From Escherichia phage JoYop, in the sequence record OR769032.1: DNA of 64,000 nt; one strand, given 5' to 3'. Below, one piece after another: positions 19,524 through 40,300 of the stretch (the stretch's first letter is position 1; every line of letters starts with the position of its first letter). Below the pieces are notes generated by a model. That model had not been told where the DNA came from. It saw only the letters and a program-made list of their open reading frames with translations, and ran no database searches. The translations under genes and the position numbers were made by a program.

Positions 19524-20051
19524 TTATGCGAGTACCGTCTTTAACCGTTCTTCAAACTTCCGAAGAGTATTTTGGCGTTCAGCTCTTTGCTTTTTGTAAG
19601 TTTCAATACGCTCTGAAATGAGAGTGTATCGTTCATTCACTGATTCTTTCATAAAATCAGGAATTTCACGAGAAGCTTTAATCTCGTCAAATTTATCAAT
19701 AACAGCTTGCTCTTCAGCAATTAAGTTATCATACATTAAAATATCTTTCTTGATGAACTCAATATCTTCTTGAGTTACACGAGATAATTTAGATGCTTTA
19801 TCCTTTTTGTACTGTTCGTTAGTATCACGAGACCAGTGTAATGTACGATTTTTATTCGTATTTTTGTAAATTTCTACAATACCAATCTCATCAATAATAA
19901 CGATCCAATTCCAACGGGATTTGTAAATCTGTCCTCCATCAACCGTAATTTCACCTCCGATTGAGATGTCATTAAAGAACTTGCTTTGTGCTTCTGACTT
20001 AAATTTACCATCGTTGTAATTTACCAGGTTGAAAATATCTTTAGCATTCAT
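19524..20051 (-). CDS. hypothetical protein with C-terminal coiled coil
   Basis: Track start at 20111 lies inside the promoter; ATG at 20051 (MNAKDIFNLV) with GGAGG SD. Confidence 0.45.
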   Translation of the reverse strand: MNAKDIFNLVNYNDGKFKSEAQSKFFNDISIGGEITVDGGQIYKSRWNWIVIIDEIGIVEIYKNTNKNRTLHWSRDTNEQYKKDKASKLSRVTQEDIEFIKKDILMYDNLIAEEQAVIDKFDEIKASREIPDFMKESVNERYTLISERIETYKKQRAERQNTLRKFEERLKTVLA

Positions 20052-20496: not shown

Positions 20497-21216
20497 TTAC
20501 GATTCTTCTAAATGTCTTTTCTGAAAAGTTGATACCATACTACGATATGGTTCATTTGGATACCCGTGTTTTATAGCTTCCTTTGTAAATTTTCTCCATC
20601 CATATTTGGTTTCTTTCCAAAGCTCGAATAATTCATCTTCATATTGCCATATAGTTAAATGAGAACGCTTTGCAGCTTTAATTCCATTAATGTGCTTTTC
20701 TTTTACTGTAGGATTGCTTAGTGTCTTTTTAATAATATTACTAACTTTTCTAACAAAAGCTGGGTCCTTATATCGTTGTGAAGTTTTTATTGAAGTGTTT
20801 AATTTAGCTTCCGGCGTGGATGTGACCTCTTTCATCTTTTTCTTCATATGCTGTATATGATTAGGATTTTTCCATAAATTTATAGAATGCTTTTTACATT
20901 TTATCCTAGTTTCATCTGCAACCTTTCCTCCTTCACCCCCATATGACAGGTTAACACAGTTTTTTCCATATTTCAATTTACCTGCCATGATATATAATAT
21001 TTCAGCTTGTACCATTTTATCATAATTATCAAAAACTTCTAAAACCGTTTTTGATAATATGTGGTCATTTGACACTTTTACACGTTCTATATAATTTCCA
21101 CTACCAACATATGAATCATTGATGTTATTAGTTATATGTCGACCATAATAGTATTTCTTAATACCTGTCTTTAAATTTAATATTTCAGTTTTATAGATAG
21201 TAAAATATTTTTTCAT
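20497..21216 (-). CDS. GIY-YIG family homing endonuclease (Seg-like), free-standing
   Basis: 239 aa; N-terminal FTIYKTEILNLKTGIKKYYYG resembles the GIY...YIG motif pair; basic C-terminal half typical of Seg/Tev DNA-binding regions. Confidence 0.55.
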   Translation of the reverse strand: MKKYFTIYKTEILNLKTGIKKYYYGRHITNNINDSYVGSGNYIERVKVSNDHILSKTVLEVFDNYDKMVQAEILYIMAGKLKYGKNCVNLSYGGEGGKVADETRIKCKKHSINLWKNPNHIQHMKKKMKEVTSTPEAKLNTSIKTSQRYKDPAFVRKVSNIIKKTLSNPTVKEKHINGIKAAKRSHLTIWQYEDELFELWKETKYGWRKFTKEAIKHGYPNEPYRSMVSTFQKRHLEES

Positions 21217-22181: not shown

Positions 22182-22215
22182 TTTGTTCTCCAAATCCGTA
22201 TCAGTTGATAGTTGT

Positions 22216-22245
22216 ATAGTACCATAAAGCTTTATGCTTGTAAAC
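22216..22245 (-). promoter_or_regulatory. T4-type early promoter
   Basis: Minus strand GTTTACA-(18 nt)-TGG-TACTAT-ACAACTATCAAC. Confidence 0.55.
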
Positions 22246-22276
22246 TGTTTTGTGAAAAATTTTTAAAAATAAAAAA

Positions 22277-22294
22277 GGGAGCCCGAAGGCTCCC
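22277..22294 (-). terminator. intrinsic terminator
   Basis: GGGAGCC-TTCG-GGCTCCC followed by TTTTTTATTTTT on minus strand. Confidence 0.6.
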
Positions 22295-22296
22295 TA

Positions 22297-23310
22297 TCAT
22301 TTATAATAACTTCGGTGGTTTTCAAGATAAACCTTCTCAAGGAAGTCATCCCAGAAACTCATGTCTACTTTTTGCTGCATACCGTTCTTAGAAGCTTCAG
22401 TAGATGCTGCTTCTACTTGATCGACCACATCTTCCAAAAACTCTTGAACCGTTTTAAACGGATGCTTACCCAACTTCACGTCGAGAATAAATGGAGCATC
22501 TTTGAGTGGATAGACCAAGTCACCAGTTTTGTAAATTTCCAATAGTTGGAGTCCACCACGACAAGCATGACTTAGTGCTTTCCAGTCAATACCTTCATTG
22601 GCTTCAGCCTTACGAGCACGTTCACCGTATTCAGCATCTAATTTGTTCAGTGACTGCTTAAGCTCAATAAGAGAAAGCGTTGTCTGATATTTACGACCCA
22701 ACACAGTGTAGAACGTTTGAGGGCCTGTTTTCTCATGATTATGGAATACCCATTCACAGAATTCGTTTTCTGGAAGACGATGCTTAATATCTTCAACCTT
22801 GGTACGACGCTGCTTAATATAACCATCTTCTTGATAGTCAACCCACTGATCAGGGATTTGATTAACTACTTTCAATACATCACGTAATGCAGCCAAACGA
22901 GAACCCTTAACGCCATATTTAGAAGCTTGCTTACGAACATATCCTAAATAGGATTTCATGTTAGTCGTATAAAAACGAGAACGGTTGTCTTGAATAAACT
23001 TCCATACGTCAGGCAAATCAGATTTAACCACTAGTTCAGGTGGAGTGTGAAGCATATCTAATGCTACAGTTTCACCATCTGCTGCTAATTTAAAGAAATA
23101 CTTAAGACTATACAATTCGTGGTCAATATCATCTTTAGTGTTTTTAGATGATGTGTTGTTAGTGTTTTTACTCATGTGCTCTTTAACGTTTCCGATAAGA
23201 ATATCACGAGCAGGAGGAACAAAAATTTCTTTAAAATCTACATCAGATTCTGGAGTAGAAGTTCCATAAAGATGACTACCAAAATAGCTTTTCATTACTG
23301 TTTTCATCAT
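22297..23310 (-). CDS. nucleotidyltransferase-fold protein of unknown function
   Basis: 337 aa; N-terminal FGSHLYGTSTPESDVDF matches the G-S...D-x-D polymerase-beta-type NTase signature. Confidence 0.5.
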   Translation of the reverse strand: MMKTVMKSYFGSHLYGTSTPESDVDFKEIFVPPARDILIGNVKEHMSKNTNNTSSKNTKDDIDHELYSLKYFFKLAADGETVALDMLHTPPELVVKSDLPDVWKFIQDNRSRFYTTNMKSYLGYVRKQASKYGVKGSRLAALRDVLKVVNQIPDQWVDYQEDGYIKQRRTKVEDIKHRLPENEFCEWVFHNHEKTGPQTFYTVLGRKYQTTLSLIELKQSLNKLDAEYGERARKAEANEGIDWKALSHACRGGLQLLEIYKTGDLVYPLKDAPFILDVKLGKHPFKTVQEFLEDVVDQVEAASTEASKNGMQQKVDMSFWDDFLEKVYLENHRSYYK

Positions 23311-23768
23311 TCAGCCTTATATTCAATAACAGGACATACTTTAGCTTTACGCGCTTTTAAAAATTCGATAATAAGAGATTTCTTGGGTTGAATAGGAGGT
23401 AAATCTTTATACGCTCTATTAATATTTTCTACGTGTAAAGCATAATCCTTTTTCCATTTATAATTTTTATATTTTTCACGCAAATGCGCAGGAATAACAA
23501 ATGAACCGATAATAAGTAAAACAACCAAAAGAGCAAGTATAAATGCCGATGGAAGAAGAGTCCATAAACTACCGAAAATAAGCCAACGTTGTAGACTTTC
23601 TGCACAAATAATTGTTAGCCCTACGAGTATAGCACACCCAAAAATAGAAACGAAAAATGTAGGGATAGCAATAGACCAAAAGTATGCACATAGTGTCTTA
23701 GGTCGTTGCCATTCGTCGTTAAACAATTTGAACAATTTATAGTGCCAGGAGTTTTCATTAATAATCAT
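23307..23768 (-). CDS. integral membrane protein (about 3 TM helices)
   Basis: 153 aa; long hydrophobic stretches (IAIPTFFVSIFGCAILVGLTIICA; LLALLVVLLIIGSFVIPA). Confidence 0.45.
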   Translation of the reverse strand: MIINENSWHYKLFKLFNDEWQRPKTLCAYFWSIAIPTFFVSIFGCAILVGLTIICAESLQRWLIFGSLWTLLPSAFILALLVVLLIIGSFVIPAHLREKYKNYKWKKDYALHVENINRAYKDLPPIQPKKSLIIEFLKARKAKVCPVIEYKAE

Positions 23769-23770
23769 AA

Positions 23771-24292
23771 TTATCCTTTCATTGAAGGTGTAACAGTTGT
23801 TAAATACTTAATCATAGCTTCAGCTTCTGATTTTGATAATGAAATTTCTCCATTGTTTTGACGAATAGAAATAAAATCCGGATGACGGTCACCACCAGCT
23901 TTTAAAACACACATATAAGTATCAGTTTCATCTTCAATATCTGAAATGATTGAAGCAGTTCCGCATGAATGCGGTTTTTGATAAATCAATACAGCTTTTC
24001 TTCCACCGTTTGACTGTTCATAAACTTTTAATACATCAAACAAATCAGTTCTTTTATCAATAGCTAAAATGTTATTTTCATCTTCAATGTTAAATCCTTC
24101 GGATACTTCATAAAGCGTTACCCATAAATCGCCAATATCAATAACAGCATTTACGTTTCCACGACTTTCAAGAGTATGACAAATTTTCTTGATTTCATCA
24201 TAACTCATTTTAATAATATCATCTCCTTGAATAAGGAAAATATCATTTTTAAATTCAACACGAATTAAACCACTTTCACTTGAAATATACAT
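23771..24292 (-). CDS. hypothetical protein, paralog 1 of a tandem pair
   Basis: 173 aa; shares GFNIE(D/S)E and C-terminal (A/E)(M/L)(I/K)(K/T)YL..V.P(S/T)M motifs with next ORF. Confidence 0.45.
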   Translation of the reverse strand: MYISSESGLIRVEFKNDIFLIQGDDIIKMSYDEIKKICHTLESRGNVNAVIDIGDLWVTLYEVSEGFNIEDENNILAIDKRTDLFDVLKVYEQSNGGRKAVLIYQKPHSCGTASIISDIEDETDTYMCVLKAGGDRHPDFISIRQNNGEISLSKSEAEAMIKYLTTVTPSMKG

Positions 24293-24298
24293 ATTTCC

Positions 24299-24844
24299 TC
24301 ACTTTGAAATCATAGTTGGAATGACAGAATCAAGATAAGTCTTTAGCGCAATAGCTTCGTCTTTGTTTAATGTAATGATATGTGATCGAAAATCGTCAAT
24401 TTGACGAATAGATACTACATCTCCCTCTTCATAGCATTTTGACACATTTAAAATAGTTTCATCATTCTGATTACAGGAGTTAGTAATAATAGCATTACAT
24501 TTTTTAAACCATTTTAAATTATGTTTTCTTTTAGTAGAATCATAAAAATATTTAATCTTAGTTATAAAATTATCCCAATTATTAATTGATAAGCATATTG
24601 ACTCGCTTTCAATGTTAAATCCTGGGCATAAAGAATAAAAATGAATTTTATGCTCATCATTAATGCTTACAATTTTATCAGTATAAGGATTTTCAATTTG
24701 GGTTAAATGAATGATTTCACTAGGCGTAAAATATAGCATATCGTCTTCTTGCGTCAAACGATACATATTATTTACTTTTTCTATAGCCAATTCACCAAAA
24801 AGTGAACTAACTTCTAATACTAATCGTTTCGCCTCTCCCATCAT
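24299..24844 (-). CDS. hypothetical protein, paralog 2 of a tandem pair
   Basis: 181 aa; motif sharing with 23771-24292. Confidence 0.45.
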   Translation of the reverse strand: MMGEAKRLVLEVSSLFGELAIEKVNNMYRLTQEDDMLYFTPSEIIHLTQIENPYTDKIVSINDEHKIHFYSLCPGFNIESESICLSINNWDNFITKIKYFYDSTKRKHNLKWFKKCNAIITNSCNQNDETILNVSKCYEEGDVVSIRQIDDFRSHIITLNKDEAIALKTYLDSVIPTMISK

Positions 24845-24976
24845 TACATACTCCTCTGAATCATATCAATAATGTTGTTCACCAAATTATAAGTAAACAT
24901 TGGGTAATTATATTGAATCATCACATACACAACAAGCAAAACTTTCATTCTCTTCTCCTTGGCAGTTGACAAGATT

Positions 24977-25006
24977 ACTATACCATAACCTTGCCAACTT
25001 GTAAAC
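24977..25006 (-). promoter_or_regulatory. T4-type early promoter
   Basis: Minus strand GTTTACA-(18 nt)-TGG-TATAGT. Confidence 0.5.
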
Positions 25007-25008
25007 CA

Positions 25009-25182
25009 TTAAATGACGTTTTCGATAAAATTCTGAAGCTTTGTGTGAGCATCAACCATGATTTTCATTTCTTCTTTGGCGAAAGCTGTACCTCTTTCCC
25101 GAGAAGAATATTCATAGTCAGAAACTGCATTAGCATATTCTTCAATTAGCTTCATTAAAAACATCTGCTTTTCAGTTTTCAT
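25009..25182 (-). CDS. hypothetical small protein (57 aa), not in ORF track
   Basis: Hand-translated MKTEKQMFLMKLIEEYANAVSDYEYSSRERGTAFAKEEMKIMVDAHTKLQNFIENVI; ATG with GGTGGAATA SD; fills an otherwise empty 330-bp gap. Confidence 0.35.
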   Translation of the reverse strand: MKTEKQMFLMKLIEEYANAVSDYEYSSRERGTAFAKEEMKIMVDAHTKLQNFIENVI

Positions 25183-25366
25183 TATTCCACCTAATCATTT
25201 CAAGATATTGAACTAACTTAGCTTTGGATTTATCCAAATCCTTTTTAGCTGCTTCTATACCGTCGTATGAATATCCTTCACAATGCTCAACTGCTAATTG
25301 GTATGAATCTATTTCAATATCACGTGCTAATTTAATGATTTTTTCAAACTGTTCACGTGTCAGCAT
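25172..25366 (-). CDS. hypothetical small protein
   Basis: 64-aa ORF, ATG start. Confidence 0.4.
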   Translation of the reverse strand: MLTREQFEKIIKLARDIEIDSYQLAVEHCEGYSYDGIEAAKKDLDKSKAKLVQYLEMIRWNNEN

Positions 25367-25368
25367 AC

Positions 25369-25572
25369 TTAAACTCTCGTATTATGATCGATAATTTCAT
25401 CAAGAAACATATCTAAAGCTTCTACAGCATTATCAACTTTAGCTTCAAATTCATCAATACCTTTATTTGCAATACCAGATGAAGCCCAAGCAAAGTCGCT
25501 AAGTTCCTCATCTGCTTTACGAATTAAAGCTACTAATTCTTTAATCTTATCCGCTTGTTCGATACTAATCAT
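25369..25572 (-). CDS. hypothetical small acidic protein
   Basis: Track start GTG; ATG at 25572 with GGTGGAATA SD. Confidence 0.4.
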   Translation of the reverse strand: MISIEQADKIKELVALIRKADEELSDFAWASSGIANKGIDEFEAKVDNAVEALDMFLDEIIDHNTRV

Positions 25573-25760
25573 TATTCCACCACATATGAAAGAGAGAATA
25601 TTGCACACGCCATGTGAGTTGCAACTTCATCACACATATTATAGCGTTTCTTAAGAAGTTCTACAAGTTCTTCACTAGTAACTTCATCCATGTCGACGAA
25701 AAAATCACCATTAATGATGACGTAGATATTTCCTTCTTGATTGAGTGCTTCAATTTTCAT
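25572..25760 (-). CDS. hypothetical small protein
   Basis: Track start lies inside promoter; ATG at 25760 with AGAGGAGAA SD. Confidence 0.4.
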
Positions 25761-25789
25761 GATGTTCTCCTCTTTATCTGATAGTTGTA

Positions 25790-25819
25790 TAGTACCACAG
25801 CTCAAACGGAAAGTAAACC
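25790..25819 (-). promoter_or_regulatory. T4-type early promoter
   Basis: Minus strand GTTTACT-(18 nt)-TGG-TACTAT-ACAACTATCAGAT. Confidence 0.55.
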
Positions 25820-25835
25820 GGTAAAATGAAAAAAG

Positions 25836-25851
25836 TCTCCCGAAGGAGACT
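25836..25851 (-). terminator. intrinsic terminator
   Basis: GTCTCC-TTCG-GGAGAC followed by TTTTTTCATTTT. Confidence 0.55.
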
Positions 25852-39541: not shown

Positions 39542-39618
<77 letters not shown>

Positions 39619-39622
39619 TATT

Positions 39623-39697
39623 TGGCGGACATGCATGGATTCGAACCATGGACCAATTGATTAACAGTCAACTGCTCTACCACTGAGCTACACATCC
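39623..39697 (-). tRNA. tRNA-Asn (anticodon GUU)
   Basis: Hand-folded: GGATGTG acceptor, D-arm GCTCAGTGGTAGAGC, anticodon loop CUGUUAA, T-loop TTCGAAT, CCA encoded. Confidence 0.65.
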
Positions 39698-39701
39698 AAA
39701 T

Positions 39702-39788
39702 TGGTGGGGAGTGATGGAGTCGAACCACCCGAGTCGCAATGACAATGGATTTACAGTCCACACCGCTACCTCTACGGGATAACTCCCC
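39702..39788 (-). tRNA. tRNA-Tyr (anticodon GUA), long variable arm
   Basis: 87 nt; anticodon stem-loop GTGGA-CUGUAAA-TCCAT; variable arm resembles bacterial tRNA-Tyr; D-arm fold less clean. Confidence 0.55.
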
Positions 39789-39801
39789 TTAATTCTTAAT
39801 T

Positions 39802-39876
39802 TGGTGGCCCTGGGTGGAATTGAACCACCATCTGGCGATTATGAGTCGCTTGCTTGAACCTTCCAGCTACAGGGCC
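39802..39876 (-). tRNA. tRNA with CAU anticodon (Ile2/lysidine-type or Met)
   Basis: Hand-folded: acceptor GGCCCTG, anticodon loop CUCAUAA; T4 has a CAU tRNA read as Ile. Confidence 0.6.
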
Positions 39877-39877
39877 T

Positions 39878-39953
39878 TGGTGCTGATTGACGGAATCGAA
39901 CCGCCGACCTTCTCATTACAAGTGAGTTGCTCTACCTACTGAGCTAAATCAGC
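39878..39953 (-). tRNA. tRNA-Thr (anticodon UGU)
   Basis: Hand-folded: D-arm GCTCAGTAGGTAGAGC, anticodon loop CUUGUAA. Confidence 0.65.
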
Positions 39954-39958
39954 AAAAC

Positions 39959-40048
39959 TGGCGGAGGCGATAGGATTTGAACCTATGAGTCGCCGGAGCG
40001 ACTGCCGGTTTTCAAGACCGGTGCATTAAACCACTCTGCCACGCCTCC
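39959..40048 (-). tRNA. tRNA-Ser (anticodon UGA), long variable arm
   Basis: 90 nt; anticodon stem-loop CCGGT-CUUGAAA-ACCGG. Confidence 0.65.
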
Positions 40049-40050
40049 AG

Positions 40051-40124
40051 TCTCCATACAAGGATTTGAACCTTGGACCTCCTGATCCCAAATCAGGCGC
40101 TCTACCAAACTGAGCTACACGGAG
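40051..40124 (-). tRNA. tRNA-Pro (anticodon UGG)
   Basis: Hand-folded: anticodon stem-loop CCTGA-UUUGGGA-TCAGG; CCA not encoded. Confidence 0.65.
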
Positions 40125-40134
40125 TAAATTAAAT

Positions 40135-40208
<74 letters not shown>

Positions 40209-40213
40209 AAATT

Positions 40214-40300
40214 TGGTGCGAGAAGTGGGACTCGAACCCACAAGGAAATCATTCCGCAGCATTTTAAGTGCTGTGCCTTTACCAATTTGACCATTCTCGC
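40214..40300 (-). tRNA. tRNA-Leu (anticodon UAA), long variable arm
   Basis: 87 nt; anticodon stem-loop CAGCA-CUUAAAA-TGCTG; T-arm GTGGG-TTCGAGT-CCCAC. Confidence 0.65.

What the first reader, a model, noticed from the sequence alone, without database searches (positions are those of the whole stretch)
23771..24844. Tandem duplicated gene pair of unknown function
Two adjacent ORFs of 173 and 181 aa share internal (GFNIEDE versus GFNIESE) and C-terminal (EAEAMIKYLTTVTPSM versus EAIALKTYLDSVIPTM) motifs, indicating a diverged duplication. They lie next to a three-helix membrane protein.
Basis: seen in the sequence. Interest (0 to 1): 0.35.

Follow-up and report, generated by a model that had tools for sequence, protein, structure and literature searches.

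The report
Tandem MobD.1-family phage gene pair
Two neighbouring early genes of a T4-like phage are old, diverged copies of the known but uncharacterised MobD.1 (y05I) family; the pair is real and already annotated in hundreds of phages, it is dispensable in the laboratory, and its function is still unknown.

Summary
ORFs 24299-24844(-) (181 aa) and 23771-24292(-) (173 aa) are homologous: BLASTP gives 26% identity with E=2e-10, and the Smith-Waterman z-score is 15 against 2000 shuffles. The window is a Tequatrovirus. The upstream ORF is the orthologue of T4 mobD.1. The downstream one is RB32ORF097c, which GenBank already labels "similar to mobD.1". Both carry Pfam T4_y05I_N + T4_y05I_C. The family is tiny (29 representatives among 1.84 billion proteins) and found only in T-even-like phage genera.

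Mosigvirus and Gaprivervirus have one copy. T4 lost the second copy and the membrane gene where the mobD homing endonuclease now sits. T2 carries both copies frameshifted.

AlphaFold predicts three beta4-alpha units. Matches to PUR and Whirly/MRP folds are weak, and the proteins are acidic (pI 4.2-5.4 in nearly all members), which argues against the "transcription factor" label.

The C-terminal unit also exists as a stand-alone gene. In seven genera it lies immediately upstream of the same small membrane protein. Both copies are under purifying selection (dN/dS 0.19-0.32). Published transposon data class T4 mobD.1 and the Bas37 genes I map to this pair as non-essential.

Best guess: a dispensable early host-interaction module. 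Low novelty.

The parts
24977..25005 (-). Early-type sigma-70 promoter (TTTACA-17-TATAGT with TG extension) in the gap between mobD.2a and mobD.2. It is the probable start of the transcription unit that holds the pair.
   Evidence: Consensus scan, 10/12 matches with TG, and sequence read. The GTTTAC -35 plus extended -10 shape resembles T4 early promoters (my own knowledge). Function is inferred, not shown.
24844..24948 (-). mobD.2 (34 aa from the ATG at 24948; the mechanical ORF list starts at a TTG at 24972). Its stop overlaps the mobD.1 start (TAATG).
   Evidence: ORF list, sequence, RB51 and T4 annotation.
24299..24844 (-). mobD.1 orthologue, 181 aa. T4_y05I_N spans residues 8-104 (24533-24823). 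T4_y05I_C spans residues 109-178 (24311-24520).
   Evidence: Pfam 3.1e-41 and 4.9e-21. N/C-domain identity to T4 mobD.1 is 90.6% / 97.3%. Synteny.
23771..24292 (-). Second MobD.1-family copy (= RB32ORF097c), 173 aa. T4_y05I_N spans residues 3-95 (24008-24286). T4_y05I_C spans residues 102-171 (23780-23989). A GAGGA Shine-Dalgarno lies 4 nt before the ATG.
   Evidence: Pfam 1.4e-32 and 3.1e-23. Found in 473 phage records, 433 of them at >=80% identity. RB51 annotation 'similar to mobD.1'.
23307..23768 (-). Small basic membrane protein (= RB32ORF096c / RB69ORF104c family), 153 aa, with hydrophobic stretches at about residues 25-98 and a basic C-terminal tail. It is the conserved downstream partner of the y05I C-domain gene.
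   Evidence: phrog_944 'membrane protein' 1.9e-49. Hydropathy, pI 9.5, net charge +9. Homologues directly downstream of a y05I_C-bearing gene in 7 genera.
22297..23310 (-). nrdC.11, a Pol-beta-superfamily nucleotidyltransferase (RlaP-like), 337 aa. Its start overlaps the stop of the membrane gene (ATGA). It is the last gene of the unit.
   Evidence: PF10127 RlaP 2e-11. phrog_388 1.8e-136.
22276..22295 (-). Intrinsic-terminator-like hairpin (8-bp stem, 6 GC pairs, T-run) immediately after nrdC.11. It is the probable end of the unit.
   Evidence: Terminator scan. A matching hairpin at 25834-25851(-) lies after rI.-1, upstream of mobD.5; it is not the start of the promoter-to-terminator unit named here, which begins at the 25005..24977 promoter.

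Best explanation
SHOWN: The two ORFs are paralogous members of the MobD.1 / y05I family (Pfam T4_y05I_N + T4_y05I_C) of T-even-type phages. They lie in a tightly packed minus-strand gene run, mobD.2 - mobD.1 - second copy - membrane protein - nrdC.11. An early-type promoter precedes the run and a terminator hairpin follows it. Both copies are intact and evolve under purifying selection. The published transposon data are for T4 mobD.1 and for three Bas37 genes that I equate with this arrangement by gene size and order only, and they class all four as non-essential on E. coli K-12. PREDICTED: Each protein is an acidic soluble protein made of three beta4-alpha units. Units 1 and 2 form one compact N-domain. 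Unit 3 is the C-domain. INFERRED mechanism: The C-domain is the conserved core of the system. It occurs alone as a 67-87 aa protein in other genera. Alone or fused, it is always encoded directly upstream of the same small membrane protein with a basic tail. I therefore infer that it works with that membrane protein, probably by binding it and/or by pairing C-domain to C-domain, as single beta4-alpha units do in PUR/PC4-type proteins. The N-domain is a faster-diverging add-on that probably recognises a host or rival-phage target. Two copies would give a Tequatrovirus two N-domain specificities on one shared C-domain/membrane platform, possibly as a heterodimer. The most likely role is a dispensable early host-interaction function (counter-defence, exclusion or host takeover), not an essential step of phage development. 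My confidence that the ORFs are MobD.1-family paralogues is about 0.97. The confidence given below is for the inferred mechanism.
For: Paralogy and family. Phage identity and annotation. Restricted, tiny family: 29 representatives at E<=1e-3 among 1.84e9 proteins, and 726 phage records, nearly all named for enterobacterial hosts. Operon signals and overlapping or abutting start/stop codons. Purifying selection (Nei-Gojobori, 6 phages): mobD.1 0.32, second copy 0.19, membrane gene 0.085. Structure: the full-length model has N-domain pLDDT ~90 and C-domain 55-74. The N-domain alone gives pLDDT 93, pTM 0.84, with strand/helix order (bbbb-a)x2. Unit 1 aligns with unit 3 by profile-profile comparison (hhalign P=5e-4: LTQEDD...TPSE versus IRQxDD...TKDEA). 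Stand-alone C-domain proteins. C-domain gene followed directly by a membrane-protein homologue in Tequatro-, Mosig-, Gapriver-, Teguna-, Marfa-, Winkler- and Kagamiyamavirus. A natural chimera (P0021, 6 contigs) joins the mobD.1 N-domain to the second copy's C-domain and is the only y05I gene in its locus, so the domains are modular. At long range the N-domain diverges more than the C-domain: 40% versus 59-63% identity between mobD.1 allele classes, and 39% versus 80% between second-copy variants. The mobD.1 slot is swapped for a ~49%-identical allele in RB27 and AndreasVesalius while the second copy stays. Dispensability: T4 lacks the second copy and the membrane gene. T2 has both copies frameshifted. 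HIDEN-SEQ classes T4 mobD.1 (58/59 TA sites hit) and Bas37 0207/0208/0209 (47/50, 36/39, 54/56) as non-essential (bioRxiv 10.1101/2025.11.20.689424). Neighbourhood: the same paper reports nrdC.1 as a Septu inhibitor and bas37_0203 as a Druantia III inhibitor. By size and position bas37_0203 is the nrdC.8 orthologue, so this early region holds counter-defence genes. Acidic proteins (pI 4.2-5.4 in all full-length members and most stand-alone C-domain proteins; net charge -6 to -22 for the full-length ones) next to a membrane protein of net charge +9.
Against: No experiment links these genes to any phenotype. In the two Bas37 host comparisons I read, insertions in 0207-0209 had no effect (log2FC between -0.07 and +0.24, adjusted p=1). 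Redundancy between the copies could mask an effect. The partnership between C-domain and membrane protein rests on gene order only. More distant homologues of the membrane protein (L012-L016) have no y05I neighbour. The C-domain model has low confidence (pLDDT 55-74). No dimer or complex could be modelled. Among close relatives dN/dS shows no consistent N>C pattern (mobD.1: N 0.41, C 0.23; second copy: N 0.13, C 0.36). The Bas37 gene mapping was not checked against sequence. The NJ tree has no bootstrap support.
Confidence: 0.4

Rival explanations
1. Both proteins are PUR/Whirly-type single-stranded nucleic-acid binders, as Pfam's label 'putative transcription factor' implies. The beta4-alpha units would bind ssDNA or RNA early in infection and regulate transcription, RNA stability or replication. 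Units 1+2 would form an intramolecular PUR-like domain and unit 3 a dimerising repeat, as in Pur-alpha.
For: The unit topology is three consecutive bbbb-a units. Foldseek matches the full-length model to Pur-alpha repeat III, 5fgo (prob 1.0, TM 0.70 on the target, rmsd 1.4 A over 50 columns, E 0.05-0.1). It matches the N-domain to the guide-RNA-binding MRP1/MRP2 Whirly-fold proteins 2gje and 2gia (prob ~0.9, TMq 0.48). The 2+1 arrangement of units mirrors Pur-alpha (my own knowledge). The Pfam family names support this reading. The genes sit in an early operon next to an RNA-repair-type nucleotidyltransferase.
Against: No PDB fold match to the N-domain reaches E<=1e-3, and TM stays below 0.5. 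Unrelated folds score equally well, for example hydroquinone dioxygenase at TMq 0.5, plus Ctf4, Rtt106 and sliding clamps. No sequence or profile hit to PurA, Whirly or any solved structure was found. The family is acidic almost throughout (pI 4.2-5.4 in all but two stand-alone members), and its conserved motifs are acidic turns (QEDD, NIExE, RQxDD). Known PUR, Whirly and PC4 binders present basic/aromatic sheets (my own knowledge). The conserved link to a membrane protein is not expected for a transcription factor.
Confidence: 0.2
2. On origin: the second copy is not an in-place tandem duplicate. It is a xenologue, a distant family member brought in by recombination from another T4-like phage and inserted next to the resident mobD.1.
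For: The second copy branches outside the clade of all sampled mobD.1 orthologues from three genera. It is only 24-28% (N) and 29-33% (C) identical to each of them. The locus is visibly mosaic: the mobD.1 slot holds alleles only ~49% identical within one genus. Homing endonucleases have been inserted nearby (mobD in T4, a seg-like gene at 20497-21216). A chimera shows recombination between the copies.
Against: No donor lineage with a closer relative was found among 1.84e9 representatives. Short in-register DNA matches between the copies fit either origin. An old duplication followed by loss in Mosigvirus and Gaprivervirus, or fast divergence after duplication, explains the tree equally well. 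The tree is NJ, midpoint-rooted and without bootstrap support.
Confidence: 0.3
3. The two copies are functionally redundant leftovers, with one copy decaying and no distinct role for the pair.
For: T4 does without the second copy. T2 has both copies broken. A chimera collapses the two into one gene. Transposon insertions give no phenotype.
Against: Both copies are intact in about 430-470 sequenced phages. dN/dS is 0.19 for the second copy and 0.32 for mobD.1. At 26% identity they have persisted side by side for a very long time, which neutral redundancy does not predict.
Confidence: 0.1

Closest known systems
T4 MobD.1 (UniProt Y05I_BPT4): Pfam PF24449 T4_y05I_N + PF24448 T4_y05I_C; PHROG 1502
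   Same: Both ORFs have the full two-domain architecture, well above Pfam's gathering scores. The 181-aa ORF is the positional orthologue, lying between mobD.2 and nrdC.11 and 91-97% identical per domain to T4 mobD.1. Neither has a known function, and T4 mobD.1 is reported non-essential.
   Different: T4 has one copy followed by the HNH homing endonuclease mobD. This phage, like about 430-470 other Tequatrovirus records, has a second copy only 26% identical plus a membrane-protein gene in that place.
Pur-alpha / PUR repeat proteins, including single-repeat bacterial PUR proteins
   Same: The units have beta4-alpha topology. There are three units per chain, with units 1+2 forming one domain and unit 3 separate. 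Unit 3 also exists as a stand-alone small protein. The best local fold match of the full-length model is Pur-alpha repeat III.
   Different: There is no detectable sequence relationship, and the fold scores are weak (E 0.05-0.1). The proteins are acidic rather than basic. No nucleic-acid binding has been shown. They are encoded next to a membrane protein.
Whirly-fold RNA/ssDNA binders (trypanosome MRP1/MRP2, plant Whirly/p24, PC4 C-terminal domain)
   Same: The arrangement is two beta4-alpha motifs per domain. MRP1/MRP2 is among the best TM matches of the N-domain model (TMq 0.48).
   Different: TM is below 0.5 and rmsd about 6 A. Unrelated folds score as well. The proteins are acidic and share no sequence similarity with these binders.
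Counter-defence genes of the same early region (T4 nrdC.1 anti-Septu; Bas37_0203 anti-Druantia III; HIDEN-SEQ preprint)
   Same: These are also small, early, non-essential genes of unknown fold in the nrdC.x-mobD.x block. They vary between related phages.
   Different: Those genes gave a host-dependent transposon phenotype. The mobD.1 pair and the membrane gene did not in the comparisons I read. There is no sequence similarity.
DUF7438 tandem family (mobD.2a, mobD.3, mobD.4) 200-800 nt upstream
   Same: This is another set of small diverged tandem paralogues in the same early block, which shows that the region accumulates tandem copies.
   Different: It is an unrelated ~57-aa helical family with three or four copies and no membrane partner.

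Membership tests
MobD.1 / y05I family (Pfam PF24449 + PF24448) | N-terminal domain matches PF24449 above the gathering score (24.9 bits) | tested here: met
   140.5 bits for the 181-aa ORF and 112.7 bits for the 173-aa ORF
MobD.1 / y05I family (Pfam PF24449 + PF24448) | C-terminal domain matches PF24448 above the gathering score (27 bits) | tested here: met
   75.3 and 82.4 bits. The conserved K-x-E-A...Y-L...V-x-P-[ST]-M tail is present in both.
MobD.1 / y05I family (Pfam PF24449 + PF24448) | Position in the T-even early block between the mobD.2 side and nrdC.11 | tested here: met
   Same order in RB51, T4, JS09, VR25, RB27, AndreasVesalius and T2
PUR repeat family (Pur-alpha, Pfam PurA) | Sequence or profile match to the PUR repeat | tested here: not met
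   No PurA hit in Pfam at E<=0.1. No PUR protein among PDB sequence hits at E<=10, using the single sequence or profiles of the full length, N-domain or C-domain.
PUR repeat family (Pur-alpha, Pfam PurA) | beta-beta-beta-beta-alpha repeat topology, two repeats per globular domain | tested here: met
   AF2 N-domain model (pLDDT 93): E7-13, E17-24, E27-32, E35-39, H41-49 and E57-60, E66-69, E76-79, E84-87, H90-103. The third unit spans residues 108-180. This is a prediction, not a solved structure.
PUR repeat family (Pur-alpha, Pfam PurA) | Significant 3D superposition on a solved PUR domain | tested here: inconclusive
   5fgo (repeat III): prob 1.0, TM 0.70 on the target, rmsd 1.4 A over 50 columns, but E 0.05-0.1. 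No PUR I-II domain appears among the top 50 hits for the N-domain.
PUR repeat family (Pur-alpha, Pfam PurA) | Basic/aromatic nucleic-acid-binding surface and binding of ssDNA/RNA | tested here: not met
   Only the charge proxy was tested. pI is 5.4 and 4.7 here and 4.2-5.4 in nearly all family members, and the conserved motifs are acidic. Binding itself cannot be tested with these tools.
Whirly-fold binders (MRP1/MRP2, Whirly, PC4) | Structural match with TM > 0.5 to a solved member | tested here: inconclusive
   2gje_D and 2gia_B: TMq 0.48, TMt 0.38, rmsd ~6 A, prob ~0.9, E 0.07-0.09. Hydroquinone dioxygenase scores the same.
Phage counter-defence (anti-defence) proteins | Gene becomes conditionally required on hosts that carry a given defence system | not tested
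   Literature only. There was no depletion of insertions in Bas37 0207-0209 in the two host comparisons read, and the remaining tables were not read. No PADLOC hit was found, but that library models defence proteins, not counter-defence proteins.

The most novel reading that the evidence does not exclude
The MobD.1-family proteins and the downstream membrane protein form a previously unrecognised early phage module. An acidic PUR/Whirly-like beta4-alpha scaffold would be used as a protein-binding or nucleic-acid-mimicking decoy rather than to bind nucleic acid, and would be docked at the inner membrane through its C-terminal unit. The two copies would form a heterodimer that widens the range of host defence or exclusion targets it neutralises.
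Probability: 0.12. Interest if true: 0.55.

Novelty: already known. Interest (0 to 1): 0.17.

Why it matters
As a sequence feature it adds little. The pair is present at 90-97% identity in hundreds of sequenced T-even phages. Its paralogy is already noted in GenBank, and the family is in Pfam. What this analysis adds is mostly housekeeping that could guide experiments:

- The family's conserved core is the short C-terminal unit plus the downstream membrane protein (seven genera), not the full-length protein.
- The "putative transcription factor" label rests on a weak fold resemblance and conflicts with the family's acidity.
- The locus is a mosaic hotspot, with allele swaps, a homing-endonuclease replacement in T4, frameshifts in T2 and a natural two-into-one chimera.
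- The locus lies in an early block where two counter-defence genes were recently found.

If the module turned out to be a counter-defence or exclusion device it would be of moderate interest to phage biologists. RefSeq's name for mobD.1, [quoted passage not shown], is a name-propagation error that should be corrected.

Tried and rejected
- **Chance similarity:** rejected by shuffling.
- **Sequence links to solved structures:** phmmer and profile searches with the full length, N-domain and C-domain found nothing relevant.
- **NCBIfam and PADLOC:** no hits for either copy.
- **Further copies in the window:** HMMs of each domain against all six-frame ORFs found only the two known genes.
- **Whole-chain fold search:** the top hits (Ctf4, Pob3/Rtt106, sliding clamps) have TMq below 0.2 and were discarded as beta-rich noise. 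BFVD returned only family members and uncharacterised proteins.
- **y05I next to distant membrane-protein homologues:** none in L012-L016. This limits the linkage to T-even-like phages.
- **nrdC.11 related to the 'Gad2'-tagged or 305-aa neighbours of those distant homologues:** no similarity. Dropped.
- **Literature:** 'mobD.1', 'y05I', RB32ORF096c/097c and PF24449 gave no functional study. The CRISPRi-ART paper does not mention these genes in its main text.
- **bas37_0203 (anti-Druantia III):** I first suspected it might be one of these genes. By gene size and order it corresponds to nrdC.8, not to the pair.
- **dN/dS between the two copies:** not attempted because synonymous sites are saturated. 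Orthologue comparisons were used instead.
- **MotA-box middle promoter inside the 3' end of mobD.1** (reported for T4 mobD in PMC2988022): I saw no convincing match by eye and did not pursue it.

Full report
**What the window is.** The 1.6-kb stretch around the finding matches 493 phage records at 80-99% DNA identity. Nearly all are Tequatrovirus (T4-like) phages of Escherichia, Shigella and Yersinia. Gene order around it is the T-even early block nrdC.6 ... nrdC.11 - mobD.x - rI - tk, all on the minus strand.

**The observation.** The two ORFs lie exactly where stated: 24299-24844(-) at 181 aa and 23771-24292(-) at 173 aa, with the quoted motifs.
- BLASTP gives 26% identity over 175 columns, E=2e-10.
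- The Smith-Waterman score is 114, against 32.3 +/- 5.5 (maximum 60) for 2000 shuffles. Each half is similar on its own, with z=8.5 and 7.9.
- Both proteins carry Pfam T4_y05I_N (PF24449) and T4_y05I_C (PF24448) far above the gathering scores, and both hit phrog_1502.
- Short in-register DNA repeats survive at the GFNIE and IRQ motifs.

The paralogy is real.

**Identity.** The upstream ORF is the orthologue of T4 mobD.1 (UniProt y05I). The downstream one is RB32ORF097c, which the RB51 GenBank record already annotates as "similar to mobD.1". The adjacent 153-aa ORF, 23307-23768(-), is RB32ORF096c, a membrane protein of phrog_944.

**Distribution.**
- A profile search of 1.84 billion representative proteins found only 29 family members at E<=1e-3.
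- tblastn found mobD.1-like genes in 726 phage records and the second copy in 473, of which 433 are at >=80% identity.
- Mosigvirus JS09 and Gaprivervirus VR25 have a single copy followed by the membrane gene and nrdC.11.
- T4 has mobD.1, then the HNH homing endonuclease mobD, then nrdC.11. It has neither the second copy nor the membrane gene (insertion site per PMC2988022).
- T2 carries both copies split by frameshifts.
- RB27 and AndreasVesalius carry a mobD.1 allele only ~49% identical but the same second copy.
- A chimera (P0021, six contigs) joins the mobD.1 N-domain to the second copy's C-domain at a shared DET motif. It is the only family gene in its locus.

**Age of the split.** In NJ trees of the full length, the N-domain and the C-domain, the second copy branches outside the clade uniting mobD.1 of the three genera. 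The split is therefore old, or the second copy was acquired laterally. The tree has no bootstrap support, so this remains open.

**Selection.** Nei-Gojobori estimates over six phages give dN/dS of 0.32 for mobD.1, 0.19 for the second copy and 0.085 for the membrane gene. Split by domain, all values stay below 0.45 and show no consistent N-versus-C pattern. At longer range the N-domain diverges more than the C-domain: 40% versus about 60% identity, and 39% versus 80%.

**Transcription context.** A promoter-like site lies at 25005..24977(-) (TTTACA-17-TATAGT with TG), upstream of mobD.2. Terminator-like hairpins lie at 25851-25834(-) and 22295-22276(-). This suggests a unit mobD.2 - mobD.1 - second copy - membrane gene - nrdC.11. 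Start and stop codons overlap or abut along the whole run. These are consensus matches, so function is inferred.

**Structure.**
- The AF2 full-length model has mean pLDDT 76. The N-domain is about 90 and the C-domain 55-74.
- The N-domain modelled alone gives pLDDT 93 and pTM 0.84.
- The predicted order of elements is three beta4-alpha units.
- Unit 1 aligns with unit 3 in a profile-profile comparison (P=5e-4).
- PDB fold searches are weak. The full-length model gives only low-TM hits, apart from a local match to Pur-alpha repeat III (prob 1.0, TM 0.70 on the target, rmsd 1.4 A over 50 columns, E 0.05-0.1).
- The N-domain has no hit at E<=1e-3. Its best TMs are about 0.5 to hydroquinone dioxygenase and 0.48 to the Whirly-fold MRP1/MRP2.
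- BFVD returned family members and uncharacterised proteins only.
- No sequence or profile link to any solved structure was found.

Pfam's "putative transcription factor" label therefore rests, as far as I can reproduce, on a topological resemblance to PUR/Whirly binders.

**Charge.** The family is acidic almost throughout. pI is 5.4 and 4.7 here and 4.2-5.4 in all full-length members and most stand-alone C-domain proteins (two of the latter have pI 6.7 and 9.2). Net charge is -6 to -22 for the full-length members. The conserved motifs are acidic turns. The membrane protein carries net charge +9. This argues against direct nucleic-acid binding.

**Conserved partner.** Stand-alone C-domain proteins of 67-87 aa exist. 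In Tegunavirus TG1, Marfavirus VAC36, Winklervirus X20 and Kagamiyamavirus EcS1, such a gene lies directly upstream of a homologue of the membrane protein. With the three genera that carry full-length genes, this makes seven genera with the same gene pair. More distant homologues of the membrane protein have no such neighbour.

**Experimental data from the literature.** The source is the HIDEN-SEQ preprint, bioRxiv 10.1101/2025.11.20.689424.
- T4 mobD.1 is classed non-essential, with 58 of 59 TA sites hit.
- Bas37 genes 0207, 0208 and 0209 match the membrane gene, the second copy and mobD.1 by size and order. They are classed non-essential on E. coli K-12.
- In the two host comparisons I read, insertions in these genes had no effect.
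- The same paper reports nrdC.1 as a Septu inhibitor and bas37_0203 as a Druantia III inhibitor. By size and position, bas37_0203 is the nrdC.8 orthologue.

**Interpretation.** The identity of the pair is settled. The function is not. I commit, at about 0.4, to a dispensable early host-interaction module. In this model the C-terminal unit works with the membrane protein, and the variable N-domain recognises a target. Two copies would give two specificities. The PUR/Whirly nucleic-acid-binding reading is the main rival, at about 0.2. The finding is already known as a sequence feature and scores low on interest.

Noticed in passing
window 25009-25608 (-): mobD.2a, mobD.3 and mobD.4 are three adjacent small paralogues (57, 64 and 79 aa) that all match Pfam DUF7438 (E 1e-16 to 1e-18). 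This is a second tandem family just upstream of the finding. Related loci carry four copies (L017).
   Followed up: partly
window 20497-21216 (-): A 239-aa seg-like homing endonuclease (phrog_314; annotated as RB32ORF093c) sits between nrdC.9 and nrdC.10. T4 has no gene there.
   Followed up: partly
window 19524-20051 (-): This is the nrdC.8 orthologue (528 bp from the ATG). By gene size and order it corresponds to bas37_0203, which the HIDEN-SEQ preprint reports as an inhibitor of Druantia type III. The equivalence was not checked by sequence.
   Followed up: partly
window 22206-22224 and 25779-25797: An exact 19-nt direct repeat, TGATAGTTGTATAGTACCA, is present at both sites. On the minus strand it covers the -10 and leader of promoter-like sites upstream of nrdC.10 and mobD.5. 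A similar leader (translated as CGTIQLS) also precedes nrdC.8. These look like shared early-promoter cassettes.
   Followed up: partly
public records matched: There are name-propagation errors in RefSeq and GenBank. mobD.1 and mobD.4 are called 'molybdopterin-guanine dinucleotide biosynthesis protein MobD'. nrdC.10 and nrdC.11 are called 'thioredoxin'. A 61-aa tk.1-like ORF is called 'helicase loader'.
   Followed up: no
L007 (phage T2) 1940-3019: In T2 both mobD.1 and the second copy are split into fragments by frameshifts, while the membrane gene and nrdC.11 are intact.
   Followed up: partly
L017-L019 2501-3040 (and equivalent positions): A natural chimera (P0021) joins the N-domain of mobD.1 to the C-domain of the second copy, with the junction at a shared DET motif. 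It is the sole family gene in its locus and is preceded by a Phage_tudor gene instead of mobD.2.
   Followed up: yes
L012 1395-3465; L014 2492-3459: Distant homologues of the membrane protein in metagenomic phage contigs lie next to a protein tagged Gad2 (precomputed Pfam hit, not reproduced at E<=0.01) and next to a GmrSD_N-domain protein. They have no y05I neighbour.
   Followed up: partly
L003 3437-3652 and L004 3785-4000: The small ORFs just upstream of mobD.1 in JS09 and VR25 show marginal similarity (E 0.06-0.3) to the unit-1 and unit-3 profiles. They may be another single beta4-alpha unit, or this may be noise.
   Followed up: no
window 23917-23938 and 24067-24088: A 22-nt direct repeat (82% identity, 150 nt apart) inside the second copy encodes IEDE in unit 2 and unit 3. 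This is weak DNA-level support for the internal repeat, but it could be chance.
   Followed up: no
window 39545-40300 (-): A cluster of nine tRNA genes, the T4-type tRNA region.
   Followed up: no
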